Below are positions 15,015-59,723 of a stretch of DNA of 64,000 nucleotides, piece by piece; positions within the stretch are counted from its first letter, which is position 1, and each line of letters opens with the position of its first letter. The stretch is from an uncultured Bacilli bacterium. Its GTDB lineage: Bacteria > Bacillota_I > Bacilli_A > RFN20 > CAG-449. The notes beneath the pieces were generated by a model, which saw only the letters and a list, made by a program, of their open reading frames with translations, ran no database searches and was not told the origin of the DNA. Both the position numbers and the translations under genes were made by a program. Where the stretch lies: positions 26,193 through 90,192 of the forward strand of contig CANQAG010000004.1 in NCBI GenBank assembly GCA_947588815.1, in the 5' to 3' direction.

Positions 15015-16411
15015 TGCTTAATAACGCCTCCTCTACCTCCGACAGTCATTTCACTTAAACGAATAGTCGGTTGTCCGACATCAACGGGAATCGAGCCGGA
15101 ACTTGCTCCGCACATTCCTTGTGCGCGTTTTAAATCATTGCCGACCATATCGACACGTGTCAAAACATCTTTACCGGAACCGATTAAAGTTGCTCCTTTG
15201 ACGGGATAAGCAATTTTACCGTCTTTTACGATATAAGCTTCGGTACACGCAAAGTTAAAATCACCGGTGGTGGGATTAACTGAACCGCCGCCTAATGACT
15301 TGGCATAAAGACCAAATTTGGTTGCTTTAATTATTTCTTCAGGGGTTGATTTTCCAGGAAGAATGAAAGTATTAGACATTCTTGAAGTCGGTTCATAACG
15401 ATAACTTTGTCGTCTAGCACAGCCATTACCGGATCTTCCCATTCTTCTTCCTGAGAAATTGTCGACCATATAATCGTTTAATATACCATTTTTTATTAAT
15501 AAAGTTCGTTGAGTTTTATTTCCTTCATCGTCGATGTTTCCGGATCCCCAAGCGCCTTCAATCGTTCCATCGTCAACTGCCGAGACGAGGTCAGAAGCGA
15601 TTTTTTGACCTTGTTTACCTGAAAATATCGAAAGTCCACGACCGACACTGCTAGCTTCAAGAGGGTGACCGCAAGCTTCGTGGAAAATGACGCCACCAAA
15701 CCCATTCCCAATAATTACTGGCATTTTACCTGAAGGACATTCTTTAGCGTCAAGCATGATTAAGGCGGTTTTTGCGACTTCTGTAGCTAGTTCTTTTAAA
15801 TCCAATTCTTGATCGAAAAACTCCATCCCTTTTTGCGCTCCAGGACCGACACCGCTTGTTTCGATAGCGCCTTCTTTGCTTGCTATCGCAGTCATATAGA
15901 TGCGGCCTCTGGTTCTAATATCGCTAAATTGTTTGCCTTCTGAATTGAAGATAACCACTTTTTTGGTATTGTCGGCAAAACTGACCATAGTTCTTGCAAT
16001 GCGTGGATCATAGTTTTGCATGATATTTGAAGCGGATTTCATGCGCTCGATTTTTTCTTGAACAGAAATATCACTATATTTAATTTGAGGTTTATGTTTA
16101 TGAGGGACACGGACTTTATTAATGTTTGTAACTTTAAAAAGCGGTTGTCCTTCATAAGAAGCTGAAAGAGTCTTGGCCAATTTTTCTAGACCTTTTCTTG
16201 AAATATCATTAGTGTATCCATAGACACTTTGAAGTTTGTTTAAAATTCTTATTCCCGCACCATATGTGATACCAGAATTTACCATTTCAACTTTTCCATT
16301 ATCAAGCGAAATTGAGTTGGAAATATTTTCTTCAAGGTAAATTTCAGCAAAATCGCCACCTGTTTGGAGGGCGATATTCAAAACATCACGTGCTAAATTT
16401 TTGCTGATCAT
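15011..16411 (-). CDS. tldD: TldD-family metallopeptidase
   Basis: 466 aa; HEACGHPLE (HExxxH) motif and C-terminal GxC/GG-rich region. Confidence 0.85.
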   Translation of the reverse strand: MISKNLARDVLNIALQTGGDFAEIYLEENISNSISLDNGKVEMVNSGITYGAGIRILNKLQSVYGYTNDISRKGLEKLAKTLSASYEGQPLFKVTNINKVRVPHKHKPQIKYSDISVQEKIERMKSASNIMQNYDPRIARTMVSFADNTKKVVIFNSEGKQFSDIRTRGRIYMTAIASKEGAIETSGVGPGAQKGMEFFDQELDLKELATEVAKTALIMLDAKECPSGKMPVIIGNGFGGVIFHEACGHPLEASSVGRGLSIFSGKQGQKIASDLVSAVDDGTIEGAWGSGNIDDEGNKTQRTLLIKNGILNDYMVDNFSGRRMGRSGNGCARRQSYRYEPTSRMSNTFILPGKSTPEEIIKATKFGLYAKSLGGGSVNPTTGDFNFACTEAYIVKDGKIAYPVKGATLIGSGKDVLTRVDMVGNDLKRAQGMCGASSGSIPVDVGQPTIRLSEMTVGGRGGVIKQ

Positions 16412-24800: not shown

Positions 24801-26096
24801 ATGAAATTAACAGTTGTAGGAATGGGCTTTGTCGGCCTTGTGACCGCGGTTGGATTTGCTTCAAAGGGCAATCAAGTTTTTGCACTAGATTCTGATAAGA
24901 AAAAAATCGTTGCGCTACGTAAAAACGAAATCGAAACGATTGAACCTAAATTATATGATACTTTACTTGCTTCTGAAGCGAACATTAGGTTTACTGCGGA
25001 GACGCGAGATGCGATTTATGGCGCAGATTTAATTTTTATATGCGTTGAAACTATTGAAAAGGACAATAATCCGTGTGATACGACTGCATTATATCAAACA
25101 CTTAAAGAAATCTGTCGTTTTATTCAAAATGACGTTACGGTTGTCATTCGTTCGGCGGTTCCGGTTGGCACTTGCCAAGAAGTTCATGATTTCATGATGA
25201 CCATTACAAATAAAAAATATCGTATTGATGTTGTGAGTAATCCTGAATTCATTGCTCAAGGAACGGCGATGCGCGATATGTTAACTCCGGCGCGTGTAGT
25301 TATCGGTGTTTCTACCAAAGATTCACGCGAAAAAATGAAAGAACTTTATTCTAACTTTAAAGCACCATTACTGTTTGTTTCACCGAAAAGCGCGGAACTT
25401 ATCAAATATGCATCAAATGGATATTTAGCAGTTAAACTTTCCTACGTTAATGAACTTGCCGACTTGTGCGATGCCATTGGGGCCGATATTCAAGAAGTAA
25501 GTGTTGGTATTGGCTTAGATCCGCGTATCGGGAGTAAGTATATGTCTTCTGGTATTGGATACGGTGGACCTGCTTTGCCCCTTGATACTCAAGTTCTTTC
25601 AAATATGGCGAAGAATAACGACGTTGAACTTTCAATTCTCGATGCTGCTGTTGCAGCTAATGAAAGAAGACCGCATGCAATGATCGATAAGATGAAAAAG
25701 GAATTAGGAAGTATTGCGGGTATGCGTTTTGCGGTTCTCGGTTTGTCATATAAAGGAAATACCAATGACATTCGTCGTTCGCCGGCTTTTAGAGTTATCG
25801 AAGAATTGATTAAAGAGGATTGTCGAATTATCGCTTATGATAGTGTGGCAACGACTACCTTCCGAAAGAAAATGAAAAGTGATCAAAGAATCGCGTATGC
25901 TAATACTTTAGATGAAGCTTTAAAAACTTGCGATGCTGCCATTTTCTTAAATGATTGTGAAGAATTTAAAAATTTAACAAATGATCAAATTGTCGAATAT
26001 ATGAAAAAACCGATTGTGTTCGATGGTAAAGGAGTATTGAATCCTTATGAATTAAAGGATGTTAAATACTATGCAATCGGTAAAAAAAGGCCATAA
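24801..26096 (+). CDS. nucleotide-sugar dehydrogenase (UDP-glucose 6-dehydrogenase family)
   Basis: 431 aa; VVGMGFVGLV Rossmann N-term, catalytic Cys in GYGGPALP/SSGIGYGG region. Confidence 0.85.
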   Translation: MKLTVVGMGFVGLVTAVGFASKGNQVFALDSDKKKIVALRKNEIETIEPKLYDTLLASEANIRFTAETRDAIYGADLIFICVETIEKDNNPCDTTALYQTLKEICRFIQNDVTVVIRSAVPVGTCQEVHDFMMTITNKKYRIDVVSNPEFIAQGTAMRDMLTPARVVIGVSTKDSREKMKELYSNFKAPLLFVSPKSAELIKYASNGYLAVKLSYVNELADLCDAIGADIQEVSVGIGLDPRIGSKYMSSGIGYGGPALPLDTQVLSNMAKNNDVELSILDAAVAANERRPHAMIDKMKKELGSIAGMRFAVLGLSYKGNTNDIRRSPAFRVIEELIKEDCRIIAYDSVATTTFRKKMKSDQRIAYANTLDEALKTCDAAIFLNDCEEFKNLTNDQIVEYMKKPIVFDGKGVLNPYELKDVKYYAIGKKRP

Positions 26097-26132
26097 AAAA
26101 TTTAAATTTCGAACTTTATAAGAATTTTATTA

Positions 26133-26168
26133 ATAAGCGGTTTGTCTAAATGTCAAACCGCTTATTTT
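26133..26168 (+). terminator. rho-independent terminator after dehydrogenase gene; left boundary of defence island
   Basis: ataagcggtttg-(9 nt)-caaaccgcttat 12-bp stem then TTTT. Confidence 0.65.
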
Positions 26169-26273
26169 GTTATCTTTACTAATAATATTTAAGCTTTTTT
26201 ATTTTGACATGGATAGAATATTAGGATTTATTACTTATTTCTGTTTTTTTGGTTGCAAAATGAAATTTTTTTT

Positions 26274-26301
26274 TGACGAATTGATGCTCTGGTTGAATAA
26301 T
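26274..26301 (+). promoter_or_regulatory. putative promoter of island operon (-35 TTGACG, 17 nt, -10 AATAAT)
   Basis: hexamers read directly; position ~70 nt upstream of HTH gene; alternative AT-rich -10 candidates nearby. Confidence 0.3.
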
Positions 26302-26369
26302 TAAAAATTATTATGTATATTAAAAATGATTAATTATAAAGGTTGATATTGTTAAACGGAGGAAAGTCA

Positions 26370-26582
26370 ATGCTTATCTCATACAACAAATTGTGGAAAT
26401 TGATGATTGATAAAAACATTAATAAAACAAAGCTTCGCAAACAAGCAGGTATTTCATCGAACGCTATGGCAAAACTTGGAAAAAATGAATCTGTTCAAGT
26501 AGAGGTATTAGCGAAAATATGCAATTGCCTTGATTGTACGATGGATGAAATTATGGAAGTTTTTTCTAAAGATAAAGAATAA
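26370..26582 (+). CDS. small XRE/Cro-C1-type helix-turn-helix DNA-binding protein (possible controller of downstream R-M-like operon)
   Basis: 70 aa from ATG 26370 (ACGGAGGAAAG RBS); KTKLRKQAGISSNAMAKLGKNESVQVEVLAKICNCLDCTMDEI is a classical HTH_XRE pattern. Confidence 0.7.
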   Translation: MLISYNKLWKLMIDKNINKTKLRKQAGISSNAMAKLGKNESVQVEVLAKICNCLDCTMDEIMEVFSKDKE

Positions 26583-26636
26583 TCCCAAGGTTTAGCATAA
26601 GGCGTTATAGAATTGTTAGAAAATATGGGAGATCGT

Positions 26637-29600
26637 ATGGAACTAATAGATAATACATTAAAAACATTACGAGATGATATGGCAGGTGAAATAAAGAAAG
26701 GCAGTAAATTATCCATTGCGGCCGCTTGTTTTTCTATTTATGCATTTCAAGAGTTGAAAGAAAAATTACAAGATATAGATGAACTTCGTTTTATCTTTAC
26801 ATCACCTGCGTTTGTTACGGAAAAAGCAAAAAAGGAAAAACGAGAGTTTTATATTCCGAGACTTAATCGAGAACGTAGTCTCTATGGTACAGAATTTGAA
26901 GTGAAACTGAAAAATGAACTTAATCAAAAAGCGATAGCAAAAGAATGCGCTGACTGGATAAGAAAAAAGGTCACTTTTAAATCGAATGTCACCAATGAAA
27001 ATATGATGGGTTTTATCAACCTTGACGACAAAAACTATATGCCTATCAATGGATTTACTACTATTGATTTGGGATGTGAAAAAGGAAATAATGCTTATTG
27101 CATGATTCAAAAAACAGGTATGCCTTATGCAAAAGCGTACATGGATATTTTTGAAAAACTTTGGAACGATCAAAATAAACTTCAAGAAGTTACAGATGAA
27201 GTTATTAATAGTATTACAGCAGCATATAACGAAAATTCTCCCGATTTCATTTATTTTGTTACCCTTTACAATATCTTTAATGAATTTCTTGAAGATATAT
27301 CTGAGGACTTGTTGCCAAATGAAGCATCTGGTTTTAAGGATAGTAAGATTTGGAATATGCTTTACAATTTTCAAAGAGATGCAGCTCTTGCTATTATCAA
27401 TAAGTTGGAAAAGTTTAACGGCTGTATTCTTGCTGATAGTGTAGGGTTAGGTAAAACTTTTACGGCTCTCGCCGTTATCAAGTATTATGAAAATAGAAAT
27501 AAATCTGTTCTTGTCCTTTGCCCGAAAAAATTAGCCAACAACTGGAATACATATAAAGACAATTATGTAAATAATCCTATTGCGGAAGATAGGCTTCGCT
27601 ATGACGTCCTCTATCATACGGACTTAAACCGTACACAAGGAACTTCTAATGGCCTTGATTTAAGTAGGCTGAATTGGGGAAATTATGATCTAGTTGTAAT
27701 AGACGAATCTCATAATTTTCGTAACGGAGGAAAAGTAATAGAAAATCCTGATGATGACGATAAGGAAAATAGATATGTAAAACTTTTAAAAAAAGTTATC
27801 CGTGCCGGTGTGAAAACAAAGGTTCTTATGTTATCTGCAACACCGGTTAATAATAAATTTCTTGATTTGAAAAATCAACTTGCACTTGCCTATGAAGGCG
27901 ATACTAATTTAATTGACGAAAAATTGAATACTTCTCGAACCATTGATGAGATATTTAAAAACGCTCAAAGAGCTTTTACTACTTGGAGCAAATGGAAACC
28001 GGAAGAAAGAACTACCGAAAATTTGCTTCGGATGTTAGACTTTGATTTCTTTGAAGTTCTTGATAGCGTGACGATTGCTCGCTCCCGCAAGCACATTCAA
28101 AAATATTATGACACTACAGACATTGGTAAATTTCCTACAAGATTAAAACCAATTTCTCTTCGCCCACAACTTACTGATTTGAAATCGGCCATCAACTATA
28201 ATGAGATATTTGAACAGTTAATGCTTCTAACTCTTACAATTTATACGCCATCTCATTTTATCTTACCTAGTAGGATGGAAAAATATGCTGAAATTTTCAA
28301 AGATAACCGAGTAAATATTGGGTTTACACAAGCAAATCGTGAACAAGGTATTCAACGTTTAACAGCGATTAATTTAATGAAGCGCATGGAAAGTTCGGTA
28401 TATTCGTTTAAACTTACGCTTAATAGAATAAAAGATTTAATTAGCAGCACACTTCAATCAATAGATAATTATGACCATTCACAATCATTAACTTTTGAAT
28501 TAACCGATATTTCAAACATCGATGAATTTGATGATGAGGATCAAAATAACGATGAAATCTTTTCTATTGGAAAAAAGATTAAGATTGACATTGGTGATAT
28601 GGATTATAAATCGTGGCGCGATAGTCTTGCAAAAGACGCTGAAATTTTAGAACTTCTTTCATTAATGATTGAGGATATTACGCCTAAACATGACGCTAAA
28701 CTTCAAGAACTTTTTAGGGTGATTAAAGATAAATTTGCACAGCCTATAAACGATAACAATAAAAAAATTATTATTTTTACGGCTTTTACGGATACTGCAA
28801 AGTATTTATACGATAATGTGAGTGAATATGTTCTTTCTAATTATGGATTAAATACGGCGATGATTACCGGATCGATCGAGGGTCGTACTACGGTTCCTAA
28901 GTTGCGTTGTGATTTAAATACAGTGTTGACGTGTTTTTCCCCGATTTCAAAGAACAAACAACTTCTTATGCCAAATGACAATACCGAAATAGATATTCTG
29001 ATTGCAACGGATTGTATCTCTGAAGGACAAAATTTACAAGACTGCGACTATCTTATTAATTACGATATTCACTGGAATCCGGTACGAATTATTCAAAGAT
29101 TTGGCCGTATTGATCGTATTGGGAGTCACAATCAATATATTCAACTTGTAAATTTTTGGCCGGATGTTTCACTTGATGATTATATCAATTTAAAAGCAAG
29201 AGTTGAAACTCGTATGAAAATCGTTAATTTGACAGCAACAGGTGATGACAACATTCTTAGTGATGAAGAAAAAACAGATTTGGAATATCGTAAAGCCCAG
29301 CTTAAGCGTTTGCAAGACGAAGTTGTGGACATCGAGGATATGACAAGTGGAATATCAATAATGGATTTGGGATTAAATGAGTTTCGGTTGGATCTTTTAG
29401 AATATATGAAATATAACGATAATCTTGATAAGACTCCATTTGGGCTTCACGCCGTTGTGCCGGCAAATGATGAAATGCCGGCGGGAGTTATTTATGTCTT
29501 GAAGAATCGATCAAACAATGTAAATATCAATAATCAAAATCGGTTACATCCGTTTTATATGGTGTATATCTCTAATGAAGGTAAAGTGATATGCGATCAT

Positions 29601-29885
29601 CTTTCACCTAAAACAATGCTAGATAAGATGCGCTATCTATGCAAAGGTAAAAATGAACCTTATAAGGATCTTTGTAATAAGTTTAATCAAGAGACAAAAG
29701 ACGGGAAGGATATGCATAAATTTTCAATTCTACTCGGTAATGCAATATCCTCTATTATAGAGATAAAAGAAGAAAGCGATATCGATTCGTTCCTTAGTGG
29801 TGGACATGTTAGTTTTATCGACGCTACTATCAAAGGTTTGGATGACTTTGAACTTATTTGCTTTTTGGTTGTGAAGGAAAGATAA
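26637..29885 (+). CDS. SNF2-family (SF2) ATPase/helicase with ~270-aa N-terminal non-helicase domain
   Basis: Walker A ADSVGLGKTFTA, motif II VVIDESHNFRN, helicase-C block ILIATDCISEGQNLQDCDYLINYDIHWNPVRIIQRFGRIDRIGS; start placed at ATG 26637 (GGGAG 5 nt upstream; TTG 26613/ATG 26625 possible). Confidence 0.85.
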   Translation: MELIDNTLKTLRDDMAGEIKKGSKLSIAAACFSIYAFQELKEKLQDIDELRFIFTSPAFVTEKAKKEKREFYIPRLNRERSLYGTEFEVKLKNELNQKAIAKECADWIRKKVTFKSNVTNENMMGFINLDDKNYMPINGFTTIDLGCEKGNNAYCMIQKTGMPYAKAYMDIFEKLWNDQNKLQEVTDEVINSITAAYNENSPDFIYFVTLYNIFNEFLEDISEDLLPNEASGFKDSKIWNMLYNFQRDAALAIINKLEKFNGCILADSVGLGKTFTALAVIKYYENRNKSVLVLCPKKLANNWNTYKDNYVNNPIAEDRLRYDVLYHTDLNRTQGTSNGLDLSRLNWGNYDLVVIDESHNFRNGGKVIENPDDDDKENRYVKLLKKVIRAGVKTKVLMLSATPVNNKFLDLKNQLALAYEGDTNLIDEKLNTSRTIDEIFKNAQRAFTTWSKWKPEERTTENLLRMLDFDFFEVLDSVTIARSRKHIQKYYDTTDIGKFPTRLKPISLRPQLTDLKSAINYNEIFEQLMLLTLTIYTPSHFILPSRMEKYAEIFKDNRVNIGFTQANREQGIQRLTAINLMKRMESSVYSFKLTLNRIKDLISSTLQSIDNYDHSQSLTFELTDISNIDEFDDEDQNNDEIFSIGKKIKIDIGDMDYKSWRDSLAKDAEILELLSLMIEDITPKHDAKLQELFRVIKDKFAQPINDNNKKIIIFTAFTDTAKYLYDNVSEYVLSNYGLNTAMITGSIEGRTTVPKLRCDLNTVLTCFSPISKNKQLLMPNDNTEIDILIATDCISEGQNLQDCDYLINYDIHWNPVRIIQRFGRIDRIGSHNQYIQLVNFWPDVSLDDYINLKARVETRMKIVNLTATGDDNILSDEEKTDLEYRKAQLKRLQDEVVDIEDMTSGISIMDLGLNEFRLDLLEYMKYNDNLDKTPFGLHAVVPANDEMPAGVIYVLKNRSNNVNINNQNRLHPFYMVYISNEGKVICDHLSPKTMLDKMRYLCKGKNEPYKDLCNKFNQETKDGKDMHKFSILLGNAISSIIEIKEESDIDSFLSGGHVSFIDATIKGLDDFELICFLVVKER

Positions 29886-29888
29886 CTT

Positions 29889-30494
29889 ATGCTGGGATTA
29901 CCAAAAGCGACGGAAGTAAATAAACAGCTTCCAAAAAGTGCGATTTATTCAAAGTTCAAAATGAATATGACAGCCAAAGACCGAATTGATCGAGATATTT
30001 CACGAATTTACATCACTAATGAAGTAACTGCATCAAAAATCAACTTGAAAGATGGAGCGGAAATAAAATCCTTTTTCGTAATGTCAGTACTACTTAAACG
30101 TAAAGACTTTAATGAAAAAAATATGATTGCCCTTTCTAAGTTGATAATGCAAAATATAGTGTTAGTTCTTGAATATAAAAGTGAAGGCAAAATAATGGTG
30201 TGTCGAAATGGGAAACTTTTACAGACCGAATGGCAACCAAAGGAAAAACTTTTGCTTGAAATCAAAGGTTTGAACCTTGATATGGTATGGGATAATATCA
30301 TCATTCAAATAGGTGGATTGACTATTACATCTGGCAATACCATAGATGAACAAATAGATATTGAAGAGCAAAAAAACAAACTTCAAAAAGAGATTGATAA
30401 ACTTGAAAAACTCGCACGAGTTGAAAAACAACCTAGAAAGAAGTTTGAGATGCACCGACAAATTTTGAAATTAAAGCAGGAGGAATCGGAATGA
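29889..30494 (+). CDS. DUF4391-like small protein (helicase-associated), translationally coupled to SNF2 gene
   Basis: 201 aa; starts 3 nt after SNF2 stop with AAGGAAAG RBS; size/charge pattern and coiled-coil C-term resemble DUF4391 partners of SNF2 helicases (assignment from memory, unverified). Confidence 0.5.
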   Translation: MLGLPKATEVNKQLPKSAIYSKFKMNMTAKDRIDRDISRIYITNEVTASKINLKDGAEIKSFFVMSVLLKRKDFNEKNMIALSKLIMQNIVLVLEYKSEGKIMVCRNGKLLQTEWQPKEKLLLEIKGLNLDMVWDNIIIQIGGLTITSGNTIDEQIDIEEQKNKLQKEIDKLEKLARVEKQPRKKFEMHRQILKLKQEESE

Positions 30495-30925
30495 ATGAAA
30501 AATTTTATGAACTCTGTTATAAAATCTTGCATCGGTATTTAAATCTTCCCGATGTGGCAGATACATTTCGAAGCATACTAAAAGGAATAGATTACATAAA
30601 AAAATTTCCATGGGATATAAATGATTTTTTATGTAAAAAAAATGAAATTATCTCTTATATTCAAGATGTGCGCTGTAAAAATATAATTGATGGATATAAC
30701 GAAAATCCATATTTATTAACTCCTACACCATTTAGCAAAAAGCTTTCTGACACAAATCAAAATGAATTATATTCGAATCTAATCGGAGAAATTCCAAGAC
30801 TTATTCTTAAAGGAATGCATCAAGTTATTAAAAATTTATATAACATTAAAGATGATAATGAACTTACAGAAGAATTAGTACAAGAAAACATTACTGTTTT
30901 AATGAAATACAAACTAGTAAAATAG
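30491..30925 (+). CDS. hypothetical protein (144 aa), translationally coupled (ATGA overlap)
   Basis: AGGAGG 7 nt upstream; no recognisable domain. Confidence 0.5.
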   Translation: MNEKFYELCYKILHRYLNLPDVADTFRSILKGIDYIKKFPWDINDFLCKKNEIISYIQDVRCKNIIDGYNENPYLLTPTPFSKKLSDTNQNELYSNLIGEIPRLILKGMHQVIKNLYNIKDDNELTEELVQENITVLMKYKLVK

Positions 30926-30939
30926 GGAGGATAAAGGCG

Positions 30940-32832
30940 ATGAATAAACTTAAAATGCAAACTATAAACAAAGCAGATGAGAATTTCAAGAGATTGACGG
31001 AAATGTTTCCGAATGCTATTACAGAAACGATAGATGAAAACGGCGAAGTTGTTCGTGCTATTGACAAAGATGTTCTTATGCAAGAAATCTCTTGCAAAGT
31101 AGTTGAAGGGCGCGAAGAACGTTATCAATTTACTTGGCCGGACAAGAGAAAATCTGTTCTGCTTGCAAATGCGCCTATTAACAAAACACTCCGTCCTTGT
31201 CGTGAAGAAAGCGTGAATTTTGACAACACCGAAAACCTTTATATTGAGGGTGATAATCTTGAAGTGTTAAAGCTTTTGCAGGAAACTTATCTAGGCAAAA
31301 TTAAAATGATATATATTGATCCACCTTATAATACGGGTAATGACTTTGTGTATGAGGATAATTTTACTCAAAGCACTGATGAATATCTTGCAAATAGCGG
31401 ACAATATGACGATCAAGGCAATCGGTTATATCAAAATACAGAAAGTAATGGTAGATTTCATACTGATTGGCTGAACATGATATATCCAAGGTTGAAACTA
31501 GCAAAAGATTTGCTCCGAGAAGACGGTATGGTCTTTATTAGCATTGACGATAACGAACAAGAAAACCTAAAGAAAATTTGTGATGAAATATTTGGAAGTG
31601 CTAATTTTGTTGCTAATTTTATATGGAAAAAAACAAGCAACCCAAATTCAACAGGAAACAATATTGGTGTTGAACACGAATACATTATTTCATATTCGAA
31701 AAGTAATAAGTATATTTTAAATTCTTTACCATTGGATAAAGAAGATTTTGATAAATATATAGGTAAAGATGAATTCTTAGAAGAAAGAGGACCATATAAA
31801 CTTGTTGGTTTAAATAAGACGGGAACTGTAAATGATTTAAGAGCTAATTTAATGTATGATATTGAAGCACCAGATGGTAGTATAATTAAACCAAATCCAA
31901 GATGGAGATGGTCATTAGAAAAATTTAACAAATGCAAAACAGAAAATAGAATAGTATTTATTAAATATAATGAAAAATGGAGCGTCTCGTATAAACAATA
32001 TTTAAATGAAGATACTGAAGGCAATATTGTAGCTCGAGGAAAGTTAATTAAAACAATTTTTAGTGATAATGGTAGAACAACTGATGGTACATTGGAAATA
32101 AATAGTTTATTAGGAAAGGGTTATTTTGATTTTCCAAAACCAAAAGATTTAATAAAAAAACTACTTTTCATATCTTCGAAAAAAAATGATATTATCCTCG
32201 ATTTCTTTTCCGGCTCTGCTACAACCGCTCATGCTGTTATGCAACTCAATGCCGAAGATGGAGGCAACCGAAAGTTTATTATGGTACAGCTTCCCGAAGT
32301 ATGCGATGAAAAAAGTGAAGCCTATAAAGCAGGTTATAAGAATATTTGCGAAATCGGAAAAGAACGTATCCGTCGAGCAGGTAAAAAAATCAAGGATGAA
32401 AATCCACTTACAACGCAAGATCTTGATATTGGATTCCGTGTTTTGAAGTGTGATACATCAAATATGAAAGATGTTTACTATAATCCCAAAGATATCGAAA
32501 TTTCATTGTTTGAAAACGATGATAACAATATCAAAGAAGATCGCACACCGGAAGATTTGTTGTTCCAAGTAATGCTCGATTTAGGAGTGTTGCTTTCTTC
32601 TAAAATTGAAGAAAAAGAAATTGCCGGAAAGAAAGTATTTAATGTTGCTGATGGTTTCCTCATTGCTTGCTTTGATGAAAATGTAACAGAAGAAACGATA
32701 AAAGAAGTTGCTAAGCAAAAACCATATTATTTTGTCATGCGAGATAGTTCTATGGCAAACGACAGCGTAGCTACCAACTTTGAGCAAATTTTTGCTACAT
32801 ATAGTCCGGATACGGTAAGGAAGGTGCTGTAA
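30940..32832 (+). CDS. mod: Type III restriction-modification Mod subunit, N6-adenine DNA methyltransferase
   Basis: 630 aa; IYIDPPYNTGNDF (DPPY motif IV), FxGSGTT-like AdoMet motif FFSGSATTAHAV; GGGAGG RBS. Confidence 0.9.
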   Translation: MNKLKMQTINKADENFKRLTEMFPNAITETIDENGEVVRAIDKDVLMQEISCKVVEGREERYQFTWPDKRKSVLLANAPINKTLRPCREESVNFDNTENLYIEGDNLEVLKLLQETYLGKIKMIYIDPPYNTGNDFVYEDNFTQSTDEYLANSGQYDDQGNRLYQNTESNGRFHTDWLNMIYPRLKLAKDLLREDGMVFISIDDNEQENLKKICDEIFGSANFVANFIWKKTSNPNSTGNNIGVEHEYIISYSKSNKYILNSLPLDKEDFDKYIGKDEFLEERGPYKLVGLNKTGTVNDLRANLMYDIEAPDGSIIKPNPRWRWSLEKFNKCKTENRIVFIKYNEKWSVSYKQYLNEDTEGNIVARGKLIKTIFSDNGRTTDGTLEINSLLGKGYFDFPKPKDLIKKLLFISSKKNDIILDFFSGSATTAHAVMQLNAEDGGNRKFIMVQLPEVCDEKSEAYKAGYKNICEIGKERIRRAGKKIKDENPLTTQDLDIGFRVLKCDTSNMKDVYYNPKDIEISLFENDDNNIKEDRTPEDLLFQVMLDLGVLLSSKIEEKEIAGKKVFNVADGFLIACFDENVTEETIKEVAKQKPYYFVMRDSSMANDSVATNFEQIFATYSPDTVRKVL

Positions 32833-33854
32833 TGGAAAATAAGATACAAAGTGAGATTCTTATTTATCAAACTGAAAAAGGAAATACAAAACTTGATGTA
32901 CGTCTAGAAGATGAAACTGTTTGGCTAACGCAGGCACAACTAGTAGAACTTTATCAAACTACAAAATCGAATGTAAGTGAACATATTAAGCATATCTTTG
33001 AAGATGGTGAATTGGATGAAACATTAGTTGTTCGGAATTTCCGAACAACTGCTTCTGACGGAAAAAAATATAACACAAAATATTATAACTTAGACATGAT
33101 AATTTCACTAGGATATCGTATTCGTAGTATAACGGCAACGCATTTTAGAAAATGGGCGACAGAACGTTTAAAAGAATATATTATCAAAGGTTTCACAATG
33201 GATGATGAGCGTTTAAAAGGGAATGGCGGCGGACAATATTGGAAAGAGCTGCTTGCAAGAATTCGTGATATTCGCTCATCTGAAAAAGTACTTTATCGTC
33301 AAGTACTTGATCTTTACGCTACAAGCGTTGATTACGATCCAAATAGTGAAATATCGATTGAATTTTTCAAAATTGTGCAGAACAAATTACATTATGCAGC
33401 TCATGGTCATACTGCTGCGGAAGTGATCTATGAACGAGCTGACGCTAATAAGCCATTTATGGGGATGAAAAGTTTTAAAGGAGATTTTCCGACTCTTGCC
33501 GATGCGAAGATTGCTAAAAATTATCTTAATGAGGATGAACTAAAAGTGTTAGGTAATCTTGTTTCGGGATATTTTGATTTTGCAGAAATTCAAGCAATCC
33601 GAAAGCACCCGATGTATATGAAAGATTACATAGAGAATCTTGATTCTATTCTTTCCGCGACTGGCGAAAAACTTTTACTTAATGCTGGAAAAATCAGTCA
33701 CCAAGAAGCTATAGATAAAGCAATAGCGGAATATAGAAAATATCAAGTGCAAACCCTTTCTCCTGTCGAAGAAGTGTATCTAGAAATGGTAAAAAATACA
33801 GAAAAGACAATTAAAAAACTTACGAAAAATAGTGAAAAAGGAGAGCAAAAGTGA
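32832..33854 (+). CDS. RhuM-family (virulence protein RhuM/Fic-DOC-like) protein embedded between mod and res
   Basis: 340 aa; N-terminal EILIYQTEKGNTKLDVRLEDETVWLTQAQLVELYQTTKSNVSEHIKHIF typical of RhuM family; start overlaps mod stop (TAATG). Confidence 0.8.
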   Translation: MENKIQSEILIYQTEKGNTKLDVRLEDETVWLTQAQLVELYQTTKSNVSEHIKHIFEDGELDETLVVRNFRTTASDGKKYNTKYYNLDMIISLGYRIRSITATHFRKWATERLKEYIIKGFTMDDERLKGNGGGQYWKELLARIRDIRSSEKVLYRQVLDLYATSVDYDPNSEISIEFFKIVQNKLHYAAHGHTAAEVIYERADANKPFMGMKSFKGDFPTLADAKIAKNYLNEDELKVLGNLVSGYFDFAEIQAIRKHPMYMKDYIENLDSILSATGEKLLLNAGKISHQEAIDKAIAEYRKYQVQTLSPVEEVYLEMVKNTEKTIKKLTKNSEKGEQK

Positions 33855-36800
33855 AATTCAATTTTAAAATACAACAGTATCAAACTGACGCTGTGAATGC
33901 AGTTGTTAAAGTTTTTGCCGGTCAGGGTTTTAGGGAAAAAATAAACTATATTCGCGATACTGGAAAACAGATTGCTAATGATCATCAGCAAACACAACTT
34001 ATTTTCGATAATAATGAAAAATACGATTGGTATGATCCGTTAAACGATACTGGCTATAAAAATGCACCTTTGGAACTTTCCGATGAAGAACTTTTAAGTA
34101 ATATTAAAAACCTGCAAATCGAAAATAATATTAAACAATCGGTTTCACTGAATAAAGAATTGGGGCAATGTTCTCTTGATATAGAGATGGAAACCGGTAC
34201 TGGCAAAACATATGTGTATATTAAGACGATGTTTGAACTAAACAAGCTGTACGGATGGAGCAAGTTTATTGTCGTTGTACCCTCCATCGCTATCCGTGAA
34301 GGAGTGAAAAAGTCCTTTGAAATCACGATAGATCATTTTATGGAATATTATGGTAAAAAAGCTCGTTTTTTCGTTTACAATAGTAGTAACTTATCACAGC
34401 TAGATAACTTTTCTCAAAGTTCCGGTATCAATGTGATGATTATTAACACGCAAGCTTTTGCTTCCTCTTTAAAGGAAGACGGAAAAAGTAAAGAAGCCCG
34501 TATTATTTATTCTAAACGAGATGAATTTGGTTCCCGTCGTCCAATTGATGTAATCAAAGCAAATAGACCTATTATCATTTTGGATGAACCGCAAAAAATG
34601 GGTGGTGATGTCACACAAAAGGCACTTAAAAACTTTAATCCACTTTTTTCTCTTAATTACTCTGCTACTCACGCTAAACAACATAATCTCATATATGTGC
34701 TTGACGCTCTCGACGCTTTCAACGAGCGCCTCGTGAAGAAAATTGAAGTAAAAGGTTTTGAAGTTAAAAATTTTCGAGGAACGGATGGCTACCTCTATTT
34801 AGAGAAAATTGTCCTTTCTTCAAAAAATCCGCCGATGGCAAAAATCGAACTTGAAATCGGATATAATAAGTCCATAAAACGTGAGACGAGACTATTAGGT
34901 GTCGGGGATGATCTATATTATGTCTCGCAAAAGATGGAACAATACAAAGGGTTTACGATTTCCGAAGTAGATCAGTTGCGTGGAACTGTTACATTTACTA
35001 ATGGTAATGTCATAGCTGTTGGGGAAATAGTAAACGATGTGTCTGAGAAAGATATGCGTCGTATTCAAATAAGAGAAACGATACTTTCTCATTTCGAAAA
35101 AGAAGAAAAGCTTTTTAATATGGGAATTAAATCTTTGTCGTTATTTTTTATAGATGAAGTAGCTAAATATCGCCAATATGATGAAGATGGTAACGAGATA
35201 TTAGGCGAATATGGAAAAATATTTGAACAAGAATATATTAATGTTCTCAATGAGTACATCACCATATTTGATACACCTTATCAAAAATATCTCCGCTCTA
35301 CTTGTAGCGATGTTTCATCTGTACATAAAGGTTATTTCAGTATTGATAAAAAGACCGGCAGAAGTATTGATAGTCAATTAAAAAGAGGCAGTGAGTTTTC
35401 AGATGATATTTCTGCTTATGATTTGATACTCAAAAACAAAGAACGTTTGCTGTCATTTGACGAACCTACAAGGTTTATCTTTTCTCACTCAGCGCTCCGT
35501 GAAGGTTGGGATAATCCCAATGTGTTCCAAATTTGCACTTTGAAACATTCTGATAGTAATACCACAAAGCGTCAGGAAGTTGGTAGAGGACTGAGACTTT
35601 GTGTCAATCAATTCGGCAACCGAATGGATGTTGAAACTCTTGGAGACAATGTTCACGACGTGAACCTCCTTACCGTAATTGCTAGTGAAAGTTATAAGAC
35701 CTTTGTGTCTGATTTACAAAGTGACATCAAGGCGGTTCTTTATGATAGACCGACAGTAGCAACGAGTGAATATTTTGCTGGGAAATGTGTAAAAGTTGGT
35801 GATTGTTTCACTACTATTGACGATAAAATTGCTAATAAACTTGAATATTATCTCATACAAAACAAGTATGTTAATATAGAACGCAAGGTGACAGATAAAT
35901 ATCGCGAAGATGTGGCAAACGGAACATTAGTACCACTTCCAGATGATCTTGCTCCAATGGCAGAGGGTATTCATAAGCTTATTCAATCCGTCTATGACGA
36001 CAGTATGTTGGAAAGTATGTTTACTGATGGTCACGAGTCTAAAATTATGGACAATCCGCTGAATGAAAATTTTGCTAAAAAAGAATTTCAGGCACTTTGG
36101 AATGAAATCAATCGTAAGTATGCCTATACAGTTAGCTTTGATAGTGAGGAACTGATAAAAAAAGCGATCGACTACATCGATCAGAAACTATTTGTTTCTG
36201 AATTACAATACACAACGACTATCGGAAGGCAGAAAGACAAGATGAACGAAAATGAAATTGAAAACCTAACTTCGTTCAGCAACGAAAAAACGAGAACCCA
36301 AACGTTGAAACATACTGAAGCAAGCAACGTAAAATATGATCTTATTGGAAAAGTAGCGGAAGGTACTATTCTTACAAGAAAAACTGTAGCAAGGATATTG
36401 AAAGGAATTAGGAAAGATAAGCTTAAGATGTTTAGCTATAATCCTGAAGAATTTATATCAAAAATAATAAAACTCATTAAAGAGCAGAAAGCTACAATGA
36501 TTGTTGAACACATTTCCTACAATCAAATTGATGGAAAGTATGATAGCACGATTTTTACTGCTGAAAAAACTACAGTTAGATTTGATAAGGCATATCTTGC
36601 CAAAAAAGCGATTCAAGATTATGTATTTATAGATGGAACGGCAGAAAATAGTATTGAAAGAAGATTCGCTAAAAGTTTAGATGAAGCTGATGAAGTTTGT
36701 GTCTATGCTAAGCTACCGAGAACTTTCCAAATACCGACACCAGTGGGTAACTATTCCCCTGATTGGGCGATAGCTTTTTATGAAGGTAAAGTAAAACATA

Positions 36801-36973
36801 TTTTCTTTATTGCTGAAACGAAAGGTACAATGGAAAGCTTGAATCTGCGACCAATTGAACAGGCTAAGATTTCATGTGCAAAAAAGTTGTTTAACGAAAT
36901 GTCTACAAGCAAGGTAAAGTATCATGAAGTTGATAGTTATACAAAATTGCTTAATGTAATAGAGATGCTTTAA
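33851..36973 (+). CDS. res: Type III restriction enzyme Res subunit (SF2 helicase + C-terminal PD-(D/E)xK nuclease)
   Basis: 1040 aa; Walker A ETGTGKTYV, DEPQ (motif II ILDEPQK), C-terminal PDWAIAF...IAETKG nuclease block; GTG start at 33851 with AAGGAGAG RBS overlapping RhuM stop (GTGA). Confidence 0.9.
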   Translation: MKFNFKIQQYQTDAVNAVVKVFAGQGFREKINYIRDTGKQIANDHQQTQLIFDNNEKYDWYDPLNDTGYKNAPLELSDEELLSNIKNLQIENNIKQSVSLNKELGQCSLDIEMETGTGKTYVYIKTMFELNKLYGWSKFIVVVPSIAIREGVKKSFEITIDHFMEYYGKKARFFVYNSSNLSQLDNFSQSSGINVMIINTQAFASSLKEDGKSKEARIIYSKRDEFGSRRPIDVIKANRPIIILDEPQKMGGDVTQKALKNFNPLFSLNYSATHAKQHNLIYVLDALDAFNERLVKKIEVKGFEVKNFRGTDGYLYLEKIVLSSKNPPMAKIELEIGYNKSIKRETRLLGVGDDLYYVSQKMEQYKGFTISEVDQLRGTVTFTNGNVIAVGEIVNDVSEKDMRRIQIRETILSHFEKEEKLFNMGIKSLSLFFIDEVAKYRQYDEDGNEILGEYGKIFEQEYINVLNEYITIFDTPYQKYLRSTCSDVSSVHKGYFSIDKKTGRSIDSQLKRGSEFSDDISAYDLILKNKERLLSFDEPTRFIFSHSALREGWDNPNVFQICTLKHSDSNTTKRQEVGRGLRLCVNQFGNRMDVETLGDNVHDVNLLTVIASESYKTFVSDLQSDIKAVLYDRPTVATSEYFAGKCVKVGDCFTTIDDKIANKLEYYLIQNKYVNIERKVTDKYREDVANGTLVPLPDDLAPMAEGIHKLIQSVYDDSMLESMFTDGHESKIMDNPLNENFAKKEFQALWNEINRKYAYTVSFDSEELIKKAIDYIDQKLFVSELQYTTTIGRQKDKMNENEIENLTSFSNEKTRTQTLKHTEASNVKYDLIGKVAEGTILTRKTVARILKGIRKDKLKMFSYNPEEFISKIIKLIKEQKATMIVEHISYNQIDGKYDSTIFTAEKTTVRFDKAYLAKKAIQDYVFIDGTAENSIERRFAKSLDEADEVCVYAKLPRTFQIPTPVGNYSPDWAIAFYEGKVKHIFFIAETKGTMESLNLRPIEQAKISCAKKLFNEMSTSKVKYHEVDSYTKLLNVIEML

Positions 36974-37317
36974 TTATTAAAAATTTCATTTTATCTAAAT
37001 ATTTTCATAATAATATAATAAAAAGCTCGATAAAGGTATGAGATTGATTAGGGAGTAAAATTTAACTTTTATCAAAATATAAATAAGTATTTTCTGTATG
37101 TAATGTGAGTGTAATTTTTTGTTCTTTGCATTGCAAAGTATAGATAATATTTATGTTTTTCATTTTGAAAAAAGGGAAAGCAGCACTTGAAAAAAATACG
37201 GAATAGAATTATAATTAAAATACGAATTAGGATTTAAAATTCGGATTATGAATGAACTAAACTTTTAACAGAATCGCAATAGAAGCACACAAAAAATTAG
37301 ATGGGAGGTATAAATAT

Positions 37318-45318: not shown

Positions 45319-45394
45319 GGGGCTGTAGCTCACCTGGGAGAGCGCCTGATTTGCATTCAGGAGGTAGCGAGTTCGATCCTCGTCAGCTCCACCA
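45319..45394 (+). tRNA. tRNA-Ala (anticodon TGC)
   Basis: 76 nt cloverleaf: acceptor GGGGCUG/CAGCUCC with G3:U70 Ala identity pair, anticodon loop cuUGCau, T-arm GGTTCGATCC, encoded CCA. Confidence 0.9.
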
Positions 45395-57512: not shown

Positions 57513-57537
57513 CCTGTAACGGAAAGGAGAAATAAAG

Positions 57538-58529: not shown

Positions 58530-58572
58530 CCCGAATGCGGCGATCTAAAAAATAAATATAGGAGAAAAAAAT

Positions 58573-59406: not shown

Positions 59407-59426
59407 AGAAAGAGAGGAAAGGAAAT

Positions 59427-59723
59427 ATGGCACGTAGTTTAAAAAAGGGTCCCTTCGTTGATGAACATTTAATGAAGAAAGTGGAAGCCCTTAATGCAGC
59501 TAACAAAAAAGAGTTGATCAAAACTTGGTCACGTAGATCAACTATCTTCCCACAATTCATCGAACACTCTTTCGCTGTTTACAATGGTCATGAATTTATC
59601 ACCGTTTATGTGACGGAAGATATGGTAGGACATAAGTTAGGAGAATTTGCTCCAACTCGTACCTACAAGGGACATACCGGTCATACTGCTGAAGATAAAG
59701 CAGCCGCGGCCGCTCGGAGGTAA
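59427..59723 (+). CDS. rpsS: 30S ribosomal protein S19
   Basis: [15 protein letters not shown]. Confidence 0.95.

What the first reader, a model, noticed from the sequence alone, without database searches (positions are those of the whole stretch)
26097..37317. Ten-kb translationally coupled defence operon: Type III R-M core extended by an SNF2 ATPase, two small proteins and an embedded RhuM gene
Seven ORFs run head-to-tail from 26370 to 36973 with 0-30 nt gaps or 1-4 nt overlaps (ATGA, TAATG, GTGA), so they form a single transcription/translation unit. The Mod (DPPY) and Res (helicase + PD-ExK) pair is a canonical Type III R-M. The same operon also contains an SNF2-family ATPase of ~1080 aa, a DUF4391-like 201-aa protein, a 144-aa unknown protein and a RhuM-family protein, none of which belong to described Type III systems. 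The block sits between a strong terminator (26133-26168) and a 345-nt AT-rich spacer. It lacks the components required for DISARM (no DUF1998/DrmA/B), BREX (no PglZ/BrxC) or Dnd. Read this way it is a composite, possibly under-described multi-component R-M-like defence system, and the strongest candidate in the window.
Basis: partly seen in the sequence, partly recalled or inferred. Interest (0 to 1): 0.75.

Follow-up and report, generated by a model that had tools for sequence, protein, structure and literature searches.

The report
Type III restriction operon with SNF2–DUF4391 add-on
This is a restriction-modification (anti-phage) operon in which the classic two Type III genes are always accompanied by an extra motor protein and a small protein of unknown fold; the other two "extra" genes are swappable passenger defence genes, and the four-gene design is widespread but apparently undescribed.

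Summary
The seven co-directional, tightly coupled ORFs are real. They are not one seven-part machine.

**Conserved core.** SNF2 ATPase → DUF4391 → Mod → Res, often preceded by a small Xre-type HTH.
- In 80 loci seeded on DUF4391 (mainly Clostridia, some Bacteroidota and spirochaetes), 68 of 69 evaluable loci have the SNF2 gene upstream, and 51 of 56 have Mod then Res downstream.
- The same order recurs on 10 of 10 inspected plasmids, including one from an archaeon.
- Identities of the four proteins co-vary (r 0.64–0.90).

**Cargo.** The 144-aa gene and RhuM occur in 2 and 9 of the 80 loci. They occupy intra-operon slots that elsewhere hold TIR, AbiJ, KAP NTPase, SLOG, SIR2–HerA, AbiE, Shedu and others.

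**Component properties.**
- Mod and Res are EcoP15I homologues with intact catalytic motifs.
- The DUF4391 model (pLDDT 90) matches no solved structure.

**Naming.** PADLOC and NCBIfam have no DUF4391 model and no system-level match, and I found no paper describing the architecture.

**Most likely reading.** A Type III-derived, dual-ATPase R-M system carrying embedded second-line effectors. The role of SNF2–DUF4391 is inferred, not shown.

The parts
26132..26166 (+). Intrinsic terminator hairpin of the upstream gene (24801-26096); marks the 5' boundary of the block
   Evidence: 13-bp perfect inverted repeat with a 9-nt loop. RNA fold -18.6 kcal/mol, z -6.1.
26273..26321 (+). Two overlapping sigma-70-like promoter matches upstream of the HTH gene, overlapping AT-rich direct and inverted repeats (26250-26337). 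Candidate operon promoter and operator.
   Evidence: TTGACG-17-AATAAT (10/12) and TTGAAT-17-TATATT (9/12). Repeats D1, D2 and I1. Many related loci have TGnTATAAT about 60-70 nt upstream of the HTH start. Function not shown.
26370..26582 (+). 70-aa Xre/Cro-type HTH protein; likely transcriptional controller of the operon (C-protein-like)
   Evidence: PF13443 HTH_26, E 2.7e-18. Homologue directly upstream of SNF2 in 21 of 80 loci by tblastn, in L097/L098 and on the E. faecium plasmid.
26637..29885 (+). 1082-aa SNF2-family ATPase. It has an N-terminal catalytically dead PLD-fold domain (about residues 1-200, nt 26637-27240), a helicase core (GLGKT 27444-27458, DESH 27702-27713, SATP 27834-27845, QRFGRIDR 29094-29117) and an unassigned C-terminal region of about 230 aa.
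29889..30494 (+). 201-aa DUF4391 protein: an N-terminal alpha/beta domain (about 1-145) plus a C-terminal helical hairpin (152-200). Conserved partner of SNF2/Mod/Res and the fastest-evolving core component.
30491..30925 (+). 144-aa protein of unknown function ('p144'); variable cargo in the slot between DUF4391 and Mod
   Evidence: No Pfam, PADLOC or NCBIfam hit. Only 13 clusters at 90% identity in 5.8 billion proteins. Present in 2 of 80 loci. Same slot in L097, L098, L100 and L101. GC 0.253 against about 0.33 for its neighbours.
30940..32832 (+). 630-aa Type III Mod (N6-adenine DNA methyltransferase): DPPY 31318-31329, AdoMet motif FFSGS 32203-32217
   Evidence: PF01555. PADLOC MTase_III 2.1e-232. 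EcoP15I Mod 1.7e-67 and 6k0w Mod 3e-74. Motifs.
32832..33854 (+). 340-aa RhuM-family protein; variable cargo in the slot between Mod and Res; candidate second-line toxin or effector
   Evidence: PF13310, 354 bits. PADLOC candidate PDC-S05 9.7e-162. Present in 9 of 80 loci, 8 clustered ORFs of them in this slot. RhuM was proposed as a toxin embedded in R-M operons (PMC3710099).
33851..36973 (+). 1040-aa Type III Res: SF2 helicase-like ATPase (GTGKT 34196-34210, DEPQ 34583-34594, QEVGRGLR 35573-35596) plus a C-terminal PD-(D/E)xK nuclease (PD…ETK 36758-36823)
   Evidence: PF04851 and PF19778 RE_endonuc. PADLOC REase_III 6.6e-290. EcoP15I Res 1.5e-78. Motifs.
36974..37317 (.). AT-rich spacer (GC 0.224); 3' boundary. 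Contains a promoter-like site for the downstream gene (37187-37215).
   Evidence: No stable terminator hairpin.

Best explanation
The block is a Type III-derived restriction-modification operon. Its conserved core is HTH regulator – SNF2 ATPase (with a dead PLD-fold N-terminal domain) – DUF4391 – Mod – Res. Two unrelated passenger genes, p144 and RhuM, sit in slots that vary between genomes.

**Shown.**
- Mod and Res are full-length EcoP15I-type homologues with intact methyltransferase, ATPase and PD-ExK nuclease motifs.
- SNF2 and DUF4391 are co-inherited with them, in the same order and on the same strand, across bacterial phyla and one archaeal plasmid.
- p144 and RhuM are not co-inherited with the core.

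**Inferred from the EcoP15I family.** Mod recognises a short asymmetric site and hemimethylates adenine to mark self. Res, loaded by Mod, uses ATP and cuts unmethylated foreign DNA.

**Inferred, lower confidence.** SNF2–DUF4391 is a second ATP-driven, DNA-bound sub-complex that works with Mod–Res and is not a separate nuclease. The most likely roles are loading or regulating Mod/Res on DNA, or providing translocation that widens what can be restricted, for example beyond strictly inverted site pairs. This would parallel the dual-ATPase logic of MANTIS (MtsA/MtsB/MtsC/MtsD).

**Other components.** The HTH probably controls operon transcription, as R-M controller proteins do. RhuM and p144 are co-transcribed second-line effectors of the PrrC/Abi-in-R-M kind.

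**My estimates.** Anatomy and core-versus-cargo split about 0.9. Functional integration of SNF2–DUF4391 with Mod–Res about 0.75. The specific loader/second-motor role about 0.3.
For: **Gene layout and families:**

**Conservation.**
- 80 DUF4391-seeded genome loci: SNF2 upstream in 68 of 69 evaluable, and Mod then Res downstream in 51 of 56. The exceptions are deletion-decayed loci or a locus whose cargo pushes Res beyond the fetched stretch.
- The same four genes occur on Acinetobacter, Citrobacter, Listeria, B. cereus, E. faecium, Shewanella, Weissella, Phaeobacter and Methanomethylovorans plasmids.
- Co-evolution: identity correlations 0.64-0.90. Window versus Acinetobacter: SNF2 53%, DUF4391 25%, Mod 52%, Res 48%.

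**Cargo.**
- Three slots, 166 ORFs, about 90 clusters, 160 of 166 co-directional.
- Contents: TIR/PDC-S66, Abi_C/AbiJ, AbiJ-NTD/PDC-S32, KAP NTPase/PDC-S20, SLOG, SIR2, HerA, AbiEi/Eii, SduA, AbiH, AbiGi and PDDEXK nucleases.

**SNF2 and DUF4391 properties.**
- PLD fold without a catalytic His.
- A DUF4391–ASCH fusion in 2 loci parallels the DUF3780(MtsB)–ASCH fusions of BR type 2 (PMC12839542).

**Precedents in the literature.** Embedded effectors in R-M operons (PMC3710099) and in the Hma operon (PMC11232893). Dual-ATPase methylation defence (MANTIS preprint).
Against: - No experiment or complex prediction here links SNF2/DUF4391 physically to Mod/Res.
- Related full-length Res/Mod pairs (31-33% identity) exist as plain two-gene systems (L. 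crispatus and Aeromonas plasmids). Mod–Res is therefore in principle self-sufficient.
- The DUF4391 fold gave no functional clue.
- The loci were seeded on DUF4391, so the sample cannot show how often this Res clade lacks the add-on. Plasmid counts give only a rough 108 SNF2-positive against 144 Res-positive records.
- The literature library lacks most subscription journals, so a prior description could have been missed.
Confidence: 0.7

Rival explanations
1. Two independent systems happen to be adjacent: a canonical, self-sufficient Type III R-M (Mod+Res) and a separate SNF2–DUF4391 defence or DNA-remodelling module, kept together only by defence-island clustering and co-transfer.
For: Two-gene Mod–Res relatives with the same Res architecture exist. 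Cargo genes can sit between DUF4391 and Mod, so the two halves are not always contiguous. No physical interaction was tested.
Against: Order and strand are preserved in 51 of 56 and 68 of 69 loci and on 10 of 10 inspected plasmids, including an archaeal one. The four proteins co-evolve. In the DUF4391-seeded sample the pair is not found away from Mod/Res except in visibly decayed loci. Junctions are translationally coupled in the compact versions.
Confidence: 0.15
2. One reading: all seven genes, including the 144-aa protein and RhuM, are integral parts of one composite multi-component system.
For: All seven are translationally coupled in the window. p144 recurs in the same slot in several lineages.
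Against: p144 is in 2 of 80 loci and RhuM in 9 of 80. The same slots hold about 90 other gene clusters, many of them stand-alone defence genes. The plasmid versions have no cargo at all. RhuM is a PADLOC single-gene candidate and is also found in Type I R-M operons.
Confidence: 0.04
3. It is a DISARM-like system: the SNF2 protein is a DrmD equivalent and the PLD-like domain stands in for DrmC, with Res replacing DrmA/B.
For: The SNF2 protein hits DrmD profiles (PADLOC 1.2e-38; NCBIfam 3.1e-45). On a B. cereus plasmid, DrmA and a DUF1998 protein lie directly upstream of SNF2–DUF4391–Mod–Res on the same strand.
Against: The DrmD hits cover only the C-terminal helicase lobe and score 155 bits against a cut-off of 610. 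The window has no DrmA, DUF1998 or DrmC. None of the other 9 inspected plasmids has DrmAB. The methyltransferase is a Type III Mod, not the different methyltransferase class that I recall DISARM using (from memory, not checked here).
Confidence: 0.05
4. SNF2–DUF4391 is a guard or trigger: it senses phage interference with Mod–Res (or phage DNA) and licenses the embedded Abi-type cargo, rather than taking part in restriction itself.
For: The slots are filled with abortive-infection-type effectors. A SLOG ligand-binding domain is the commonest slot-0 insert and is sometimes fused to SNF2. The PrrC–EcoprrI precedent is described in PMC3710099. DUF4391 evolves fast, as a sensor or inhibitor target would.
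Against: The compact plasmid versions keep SNF2–DUF4391 with no cargo, so the pair must have a cargo-independent role. The cargo is too heterogeneous for one dedicated trigger.
Confidence: 0.06

Closest known systems
Type III restriction-modification systems (EcoP15I, EcoP1I, StyLTI)
   Same: Mod and Res are sequence homologues of EcoP15I Mod (1.7e-67) and Res (1.5e-78). They have the DPPY/AdoMet motifs, the SF2 ATPase motifs and a C-terminal PD-ExK nuclease, and mod lies upstream of res. The Res also aligns end to end with the StyLTI-type NCBIfam model (398 bits).
   Different: Classical systems are two genes. Here two further large conserved genes (an SNF2 ATPase with a dead PLD domain, and DUF4391) and often an HTH regulator are co-inherited, and the operon has three cargo slots. 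The Res score is below the NCBIfam equivalog cut-off (398 against 564).
MANTIS / Gao_RL / BREX-related type 2 (MtsA–D)
   Same: A four-gene, methylation-based, dual-ATPase organisation: a PLD-fold + SF2 helicase protein whose closest solved relative is SauUSI (here; the same is reported for MtsD), a small enigmatic protein between the ATPase and the methyltransferase, an N6-adenine methyltransferase, and sometimes a small repressor. The small protein is occasionally fused to ASCH in both.
   Different: There is no DUF499 AAA+ ATPase and no DUF3780; Res and DUF4391 take those places. The methyltransferase belongs to the Type III Mod family. The PLD domain here lacks the catalytic His (MtsD uses H122), so the nuclease is the PD-ExK domain of Res.
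DISARM class 1 (DrmD SNF2 + DrmMI + DrmA/B/C)
   Same: It combines an SNF2 ATPase, an adenine methyltransferase, a second helicase and a PLD-type domain. One B. cereus plasmid has DrmA–DrmB directly upstream of the module.
   Different: The defining DrmA/DUF1998 pair is absent from the window and from 9 of the 10 inspected plasmids. The SNF2 protein scores far below the DrmD cut-offs.
R-M operons with embedded second-line effectors (EcoprrI–PrrC; Type I operons with RloC, Abi, Doc or RhuM; Hma operon insertion hotspot)
   Same: Abi- or toxin-type genes, including RhuM, are inserted co-directionally between the subunits of a methylation-based system (PMC3710099; PMC11232893). The cargo spectrum here is of the same kind.
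   Different: The scaffold is a Type III-derived four-gene system with three distinct slots. I found no description of such slots for Type III systems.
SauUSI, and the R subunit of NgoAVII (ATP-dependent restriction systems built on a PLD nuclease)
   Different: Those enzymes use an active HKD site. Here residues 1-235 contain no histidine.

Membership tests
Type III R-M (EcoP15I-like) | Mod subunit: N6-adenine methyltransferase with DPPY and AdoMet-binding motifs, homologous to known Mod proteins | tested here: met
   PF01555; PADLOC MTase_III 2.1e-232; EcoP15I Mod 1.7e-67; DPPY at residues 127-130 and FFSGS at 422-426.
Type III R-M (EcoP15I-like) | Res subunit: SF2 helicase-like ATPase plus a PD-(D/E)xK nuclease, homologous to known Res proteins | tested here: met
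   PF04851 and PF19778; PADLOC REase_III 6.6e-290; EcoP15I Res 1.5e-78; GTGKT, DEPQ, QxxGRGxR and PD…ETK motifs.
Type III R-M (EcoP15I-like) | A two-gene system: Mod and Res alone make up the enzyme | tested here: inconclusive
   SNF2 and DUF4391 are co-inherited in 68 of 69 and 51 of 56 loci. Whether they are subunits is untested. Two-gene relatives exist.
Type III R-M (EcoP15I-like) | Hemimethylation of an asymmetric site; ATP-dependent cleavage needing two inversely oriented unmethylated sites | not testable with these tools
   Needs methylome sequencing and cleavage assays.
DUF4391 (PF14335) | Match to the Pfam model above the gathering score | tested here: met
   94 bits against a cut-off of 29.9, covering model positions 1-231 of 232.
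SNF2 family ATPases | SNF2-related N-lobe, Helicase_C lobe and conserved motifs I, II, III and VI | tested here: met
   PF00176 1.3e-12 and PF00271 8.6e-16. GLGKT, DESH, SATP and QRFGRIDR. The best PDB sequence matches are mainly SNF2-family remodellers and RapA.
HKD/PLD nucleases | PLD fold | tested here: met
HKD/PLD nucleases | Catalytic HxK…D motif with a nucleophilic histidine | tested here: not met
   No His in residues 1-235 of the window protein. No invariant His in 18- and 50-sequence alignments. Judging by eye, since no active PLD sequence was aligned, the conserved FK(S/T)N sits where HxK would be expected, preceded by a variable residue.
DISARM | DrmA helicase plus DrmB (DUF1998) core | tested here: not met
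   No such genes among the seven proteins of the operon. They were seen next to the module only on one B. cereus plasmid.
DISARM | DrmD equivalog | tested here: not met
   NF038317 scores 155 bits against a cut-off of 610, and only residues 565-846 match.
MANTIS / BR type 2 (Gao_RL) | DUF499 AAA+ ATPase (MtsA) and DUF3780 (MtsB) | tested here: not met
   No Pfam, PADLOC or NCBIfam hit of that kind in any of the seven proteins. Defining features taken.
BREX | PglZ and BrxC | tested here: not met
   No such hits. Only partial BrxH helicase-lobe similarity.
RhuM family (PF13310) / PADLOC candidate PDC-S05 | Full-length profile match | tested here: met
   354 bits against a cut-off of 33.7; PDC-S05 9.7e-162. 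Any defence function of the family is only a candidate and has not been demonstrated.
R-M controller (C) proteins | Small Xre-type HTH gene at the head of the operon, with palindromic operator boxes in its own promoter | tested here: inconclusive
   HTH_26 match and a conserved position. AT-rich repeats overlap the promoter-like sites, but no operator motif is shared across loci.

The most novel reading that the evidence does not exclude
SNF2(dead-PLD)–DUF4391 is an obligate second ATPase module. It changes how a Type III enzyme is loaded, regulated or allowed to cut, for example through ATP-dependent loading or activation of Mod as in MANTIS, or by relaxing the strict inverted-site rule that lets strand-biased phages escape. 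That would define a distinct, widespread class of methylation-based defence. Its three intra-operon slots would also act as an exchange platform for Abi, TIR and SIR2-type effectors.
Probability: 0.35. Interest if true: 0.8.

Novelty: new variant of a known kind. Interest (0 to 1): 0.62.

Why it matters
- **Scale of the gap.** Type III R-M is treated as a settled two-subunit paradigm. A large clade instead carries two further conserved genes that nobody appears to have studied. DUF4391 alone has 1660 clusters at 50% identity, and the module sits on Listeria, Enterococcus, E. coli, Citrobacter and Acinetobacter plasmids, in gut Clostridia and Bacteroidota, and on an archaeal plasmid.
- **Practical consequences.** If SNF2–DUF4391 is part of the enzyme, current annotation tools mislabel these loci as plain Type III. 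Their specificity rules, escape routes and barriers to plasmid transfer may then differ from the textbook.
- **Timing.** The MANTIS work shows that a second ATPase and a small protein can control methylation itself. This operon offers an independent, evolutionarily separate test of that idea.
- **Discovery resource.** The cargo slots hold many unannotated genes next to TIR, Abi, SIR2–HerA and Shedu genes, so they are a ready source of candidate new defence genes.

Tried and rejected
- **Literature.** 'DUF4391' gave two irrelevant papers, one of them apparently a typo for DUF7941. 'PF14335' and 'COG3587+COG0553' gave nothing. Broader SNF2/Type III searches found only analogues: BR systems, Hma, MANTIS and HEPN/RhuM.
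- **PLD domain by sequence.** Pfam at E up to 10 and a profile search of the PDB found nothing. Only the structure search worked.
- **Horizontal acquisition by composition.** No GC difference from the flanks. Only p144 is lower, at 0.253.
- **Phase variation of mod.** No simple-sequence repeats.
- **Shared HTH operator motif across loci.** None found.
- **Organism identity.** Exact-sequence look-ups returned unnamed records only. Rfam found just one tRNA.
- **DISARM membership.** Considered because of the DrmD hits and the B. cereus DrmAB adjacency. Rejected because DrmA/B are missing here and on the other plasmids.
- **RhuM structure.** No solved relative.

Full report
**1. Observation**

The + strand between 26370 and 36973 carries seven ORFs.

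| Gene | Coordinates | Length |
|---|---|---|
| HTH | 26370-26582 | 70 aa |
| SNF2 ATPase | 26637-29885 | 1082 aa |
| DUF4391 | 29889-30494 | 201 aa |
| p144 (unknown) | 30491-30925 | 144 aa |
| Mod | 30940-32832 | 630 aa |
| RhuM | 32832-33854 | 340 aa |
| Res | 33851-36973 | 1040 aa |

- The SNF2 start is ATG 26637, chosen because homologues begin MELIDN/MKLIDN.
The exception is the HTH→SNF2 gap, which is 54 nt.
- The hairpin at 26132-26166 is a strong terminator of the upstream gene (-18.6 kcal/mol, z -6.1).
- The 344-nt spacer after res has GC 0.224 and no good terminator.
- GC content of the block (0.333) equals that of the flanks (0.322 and 0.324), so composition gives no sign of recent acquisition.

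**2. What the proteins are**

*Mod and Res*
- They are bona fide Type III subunits: PADLOC MTase_III 2.1e-232 and REase_III 6.6e-290, and EcoP15I Mod 1.7e-67 and Res 1.5e-78.
- All expected motifs are present: DPPY, FFSGS, GTGKT, DEPQ, QEVGRGLR and PD…ETK.

*SNF2 protein*
- It has SNF2-rel_dom and Helicase_C and motifs GLGKT, DESH, SATP and QRFGRIDR.
- Its best PADLOC match is C3a139, 'HKD+Snf2' (1.7e-123). This is a cluster of type III CRISPR-neighbouring genes from Shah et al. 2018 and not a named system.
- DrmD, BrxH, ZorD, DpdE and HmaA hits are partial and far below NCBIfam cut-offs.
- The N-terminal 235 residues gave nothing by sequence.
- The region contains no histidine at all, and no His is invariant in the family. 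It therefore has a PLD fold but cannot be a canonical HKD nuclease.

*DUF4391*
- It matches PF14335 (94 bits) but has no PADLOC or NCBIfam model.
- A confident model (pLDDT 89.9) shows an alpha/beta domain (about residues 1-145) plus a helical hairpin.

*The remaining three*
- p144 has no family.
- RhuM matches PF13310 and the PADLOC single-gene candidate PDC-S05.
- The HTH is an Xre/Cro-type HTH_26 protein.

**3.

*Genome loci*
- An alignment of DUF4391 homologues was used to scan one genome per GTDB species. This gave 80 loci, mainly Clostridia with some Bacteroidota and spirochaetes.
- tblastn with the seven window proteins shows SNF2→DUF4391→Mod→Res in the same order and on the same strand.
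- 68 of 69 loci with enough upstream sequence have a full SNF2 gene. 51 of 56 with at least 9.5 kb downstream have Mod then Res.
- The exceptions are internally deleted loci (L017, L058, L029, L023), one locus without SNF2 (L025), and one whose 6-kb cargo pushes Res off the fetched stretch (L040).

*Plasmids*
- Annotated plasmids give the same picture. 'Helicase-related/SNF2-related protein – DUF4391 – site-specific DNA-methyltransferase – DEAD/DEAH box helicase' occurs in Acinetobacter, Citrobacter, B. cereus, E. faecium, Shewanella, Weissella and Phaeobacter, and on a plasmid of the archaeon Methanomethylovorans.
- In Listeria the gene in the DUF4391 position is annotated only as 'hypothetical protein'.

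*Co-evolution and family size*
- Identities to the window co-vary (r 0.64-0.90).
- Against Acinetobacter the values are SNF2 53%, DUF4391 25%, Mod 52% and Res 48%. DUF4391 is by far the fastest-evolving member.
- The DUF4391 family has 1660 clusters at 50% identity with E ≤ 1e-3.

*Two-gene relatives*
- More distant Res/Mod pairs with the same Res architecture occur as ordinary two-gene systems in L. crispatus and Aeromonas (the latter with an IS directly upstream).
- SNF2–DUF4391 is therefore an add-on of large clades and not a universal Type III feature.

**4. The other two 'extra' genes are cargo**

- Gaps between core genes fall into three slots:
  - SNF2|DUF4391: occupied in about 24 of 76 loci.
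  - DUF4391|Mod: occupied in 56 of 62 loci, with up to 6 kb of insert.
  - Mod|Res: occupied in 53 of 58 loci.
- The slots hold 166 ORFs in about 90 BLAST clusters, and 160 of the 166 are co-directional with the operon.
- Annotated cargo includes the following:
  - TIR (PDC-S66/ThsB-like), ThsB_TIR
  - Abi_C/AbiJ, AbiJ-NTD (PDC-S32), AbiEi/AbiEii, AbiH, AbiGi
  - KAP NTPase (PDC-S20), AAA_13
  - SLOG
  - SIR2 and HerA
  - Shedu SduA
  - PDDEXK nucleases, HicB
- Many cargo genes have no hit at all.
- RhuM occurs in 9 of 80 loci, and p144 in 2 of 80.
- p144 is a tiny family of 13 clusters at 90% identity. It recurs in the same slot with overlapping starts (L097, L098, L100, L101). One distant member lies outside the system, next to a KAP NTPase.
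- Its GC of 0.253 against about 0.33 for its neighbours fits a foreign insert.
- The plasmid versions are usually cargo-free.
- Embedded effectors in methylation-based operons are a known theme:
  - PrrC, RloC, Abi, Doc and RhuM occur in R-M operons, and RhuM was proposed to be a toxin (PMC3710099).
  - About 66% of Hma operons carry insertions (PMC11232893).

**5. Regulator**

- An HTH_26 gene heads the operon in 21 of 80 loci by tblastn, in L097/L098 and on the E. faecium plasmid.
- Many loci show a TGnTATAAT promoter about 60-70 nt upstream of it.
- In the window, promoter-like sites at 26273-26321 overlap AT-rich repeats.
- No operator motif is shared across loci, so a C-protein-like role is inferred only.

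**6. Mechanism**

*Shown*
- The motifs, folds, gene order and co-inheritance described above.

*Inferred from the EcoP15I family*
- Mod recognises an asymmetric site and hemimethylates adenine.
- Res, loaded by Mod, hydrolyses ATP and cuts unmodified DNA with its PD-ExK domain.

*Inferred for the add-on*
- SNF2 is a DNA-dependent motor whose PLD-like domain can bind or dimerise but cannot cut.
- DUF4391 is probably its partner or adaptor. The evidence is the tight coupling of the two genes, the coiled-coil hairpin, and the highest identity correlation being with SNF2 (0.84).
- Two hints bear on its role:
  - DUF4391 is fused to an ASCH domain in two loci. This resembles DUF3780/MtsB of BR type 2, which has been read as a modification 'reader'.
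  - A SLOG domain is the commonest slot-0 insert (11 loci) and is fused to SNF2 in L040 and L058.
- In the MANTIS preprint, a second ATPase plus a small protein are needed to load and activate the methyltransferase, and a SauUSI-like PLD–helicase is the effector.
- By analogy I favour a dual-ATPase complex in which SNF2–DUF4391 loads or regulates Mod/Res, or supplies translocation that broadens restriction. This step is speculative, at about 0.3.

**7. Comparison and novelty**

- Mod and Res pass the sequence-level Type III tests. The two-gene composition is in question, and the biochemical criteria are untestable here.
- DISARM, BREX and MANTIS memberships fail on their defining genes. A single B. 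cereus plasmid has DrmA–DrmB immediately upstream of the module, an unexplained link.
- I found no paper, PADLOC model or NCBIfam model that treats SNF2–DUF4391–Mod–Res as a unit. The library lacks most subscription journals, and I could not run the current DefenseFinder.
- Verdict: a real, widespread and apparently unnamed variant of Type III R-M with passenger defence genes.

Noticed in passing
L088:2-15001 and L090:1-3983 (B. cereus plasmid NZ_AP022904.1, 66240-79982): DISARM DrmA and a DUF1998 (DrmB-like) gene lie directly upstream of SNF2–DUF4391–Mod–Res on the same strand with small gaps. It could be a hybrid or merely a juxtaposition. This was not seen on the other 9 inspected plasmids.
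   Followed up: partly
L023:5070-6194 and L029:9992-11104: DUF4391 is fused to a C-terminal ASCH (PUA-like) domain. Both loci lack an intact Mod/Res (L029 keeps a 52-aa Mod remnant). This echoes the DUF3780–ASCH fusions reported for BR type 2/MANTIS.
   Followed up: partly
L040:6355-9966 and L058:6344-9985; slot-0 ORFs such as L043:9584-9976: A YAcAr/SLOG domain is the commonest insert between SNF2 and DUF4391 (11 loci). In two loci it is fused to the C-terminus of the SNF2 protein, which suggests a ligand-sensing accessory.
   Followed up: partly
P0342, P0178; L017:7991-11663; L058:11153-12531: Deletion chimeras join the DUF4391 or SNF2 N-terminus to the Res C-terminal nuclease domain. They look like decayed loci formed by internal deletions.
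   Followed up: no
L040:16825-20599: Two Mod genes in tandem (661 aa, and at least 588 aa at the end of the fetched stretch) follow a 6-kb cargo region of six genes.
   Followed up: no
L079:10364-12160 (cluster of 13 ORFs), L004:10597-11238, L025:10714-11856, L040:15948-16820, L030:9526-9993: Several recurrent cargo families in the slots have no Pfam or PADLOC hit, including the commonest slot-1 family (180-613 aa). They are candidate unknown defence genes.
   Followed up: partly
L096:7284-8939 (Phaeobacter plasmid) and L089:7865-8602 (Methanomethylovorans plasmid): Cargo also occurs outside gut bacteria. An 'RNA-binding domain-containing protein' sits between Mod and Res in Phaeobacter, and a hypothetical gene sits between DUF4391 and Mod in the archaeal plasmid.
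   Followed up: no
PMC7784981 (Table in section 16): In a comparative study of Actinomyces hosts of the epibiont TM7x, DUF4391 was enriched in non-permissive strains (3 of 3, against 1 of 10 in each of the other two groups), alongside HsdM. This is a correlation only.
   Followed up: no
window 45319-45391: The single tRNA gene is the only Rfam match in the window.
   Followed up: no
window 15001-16000 and 57001-64000: These stretches have higher GC (0.42, and about 0.38-0.44) than the window average of about 0.34. A 1250-aa ORF on the - strand at 8132-11884 was not examined.
   Followed up: no
L086:12612-14951 (Citrobacter plasmid NZ_AP026943.1): A LAGLIDADG homing endonuclease gene lies immediately downstream of the four-gene module, on the opposite strand.
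   Followed up: no
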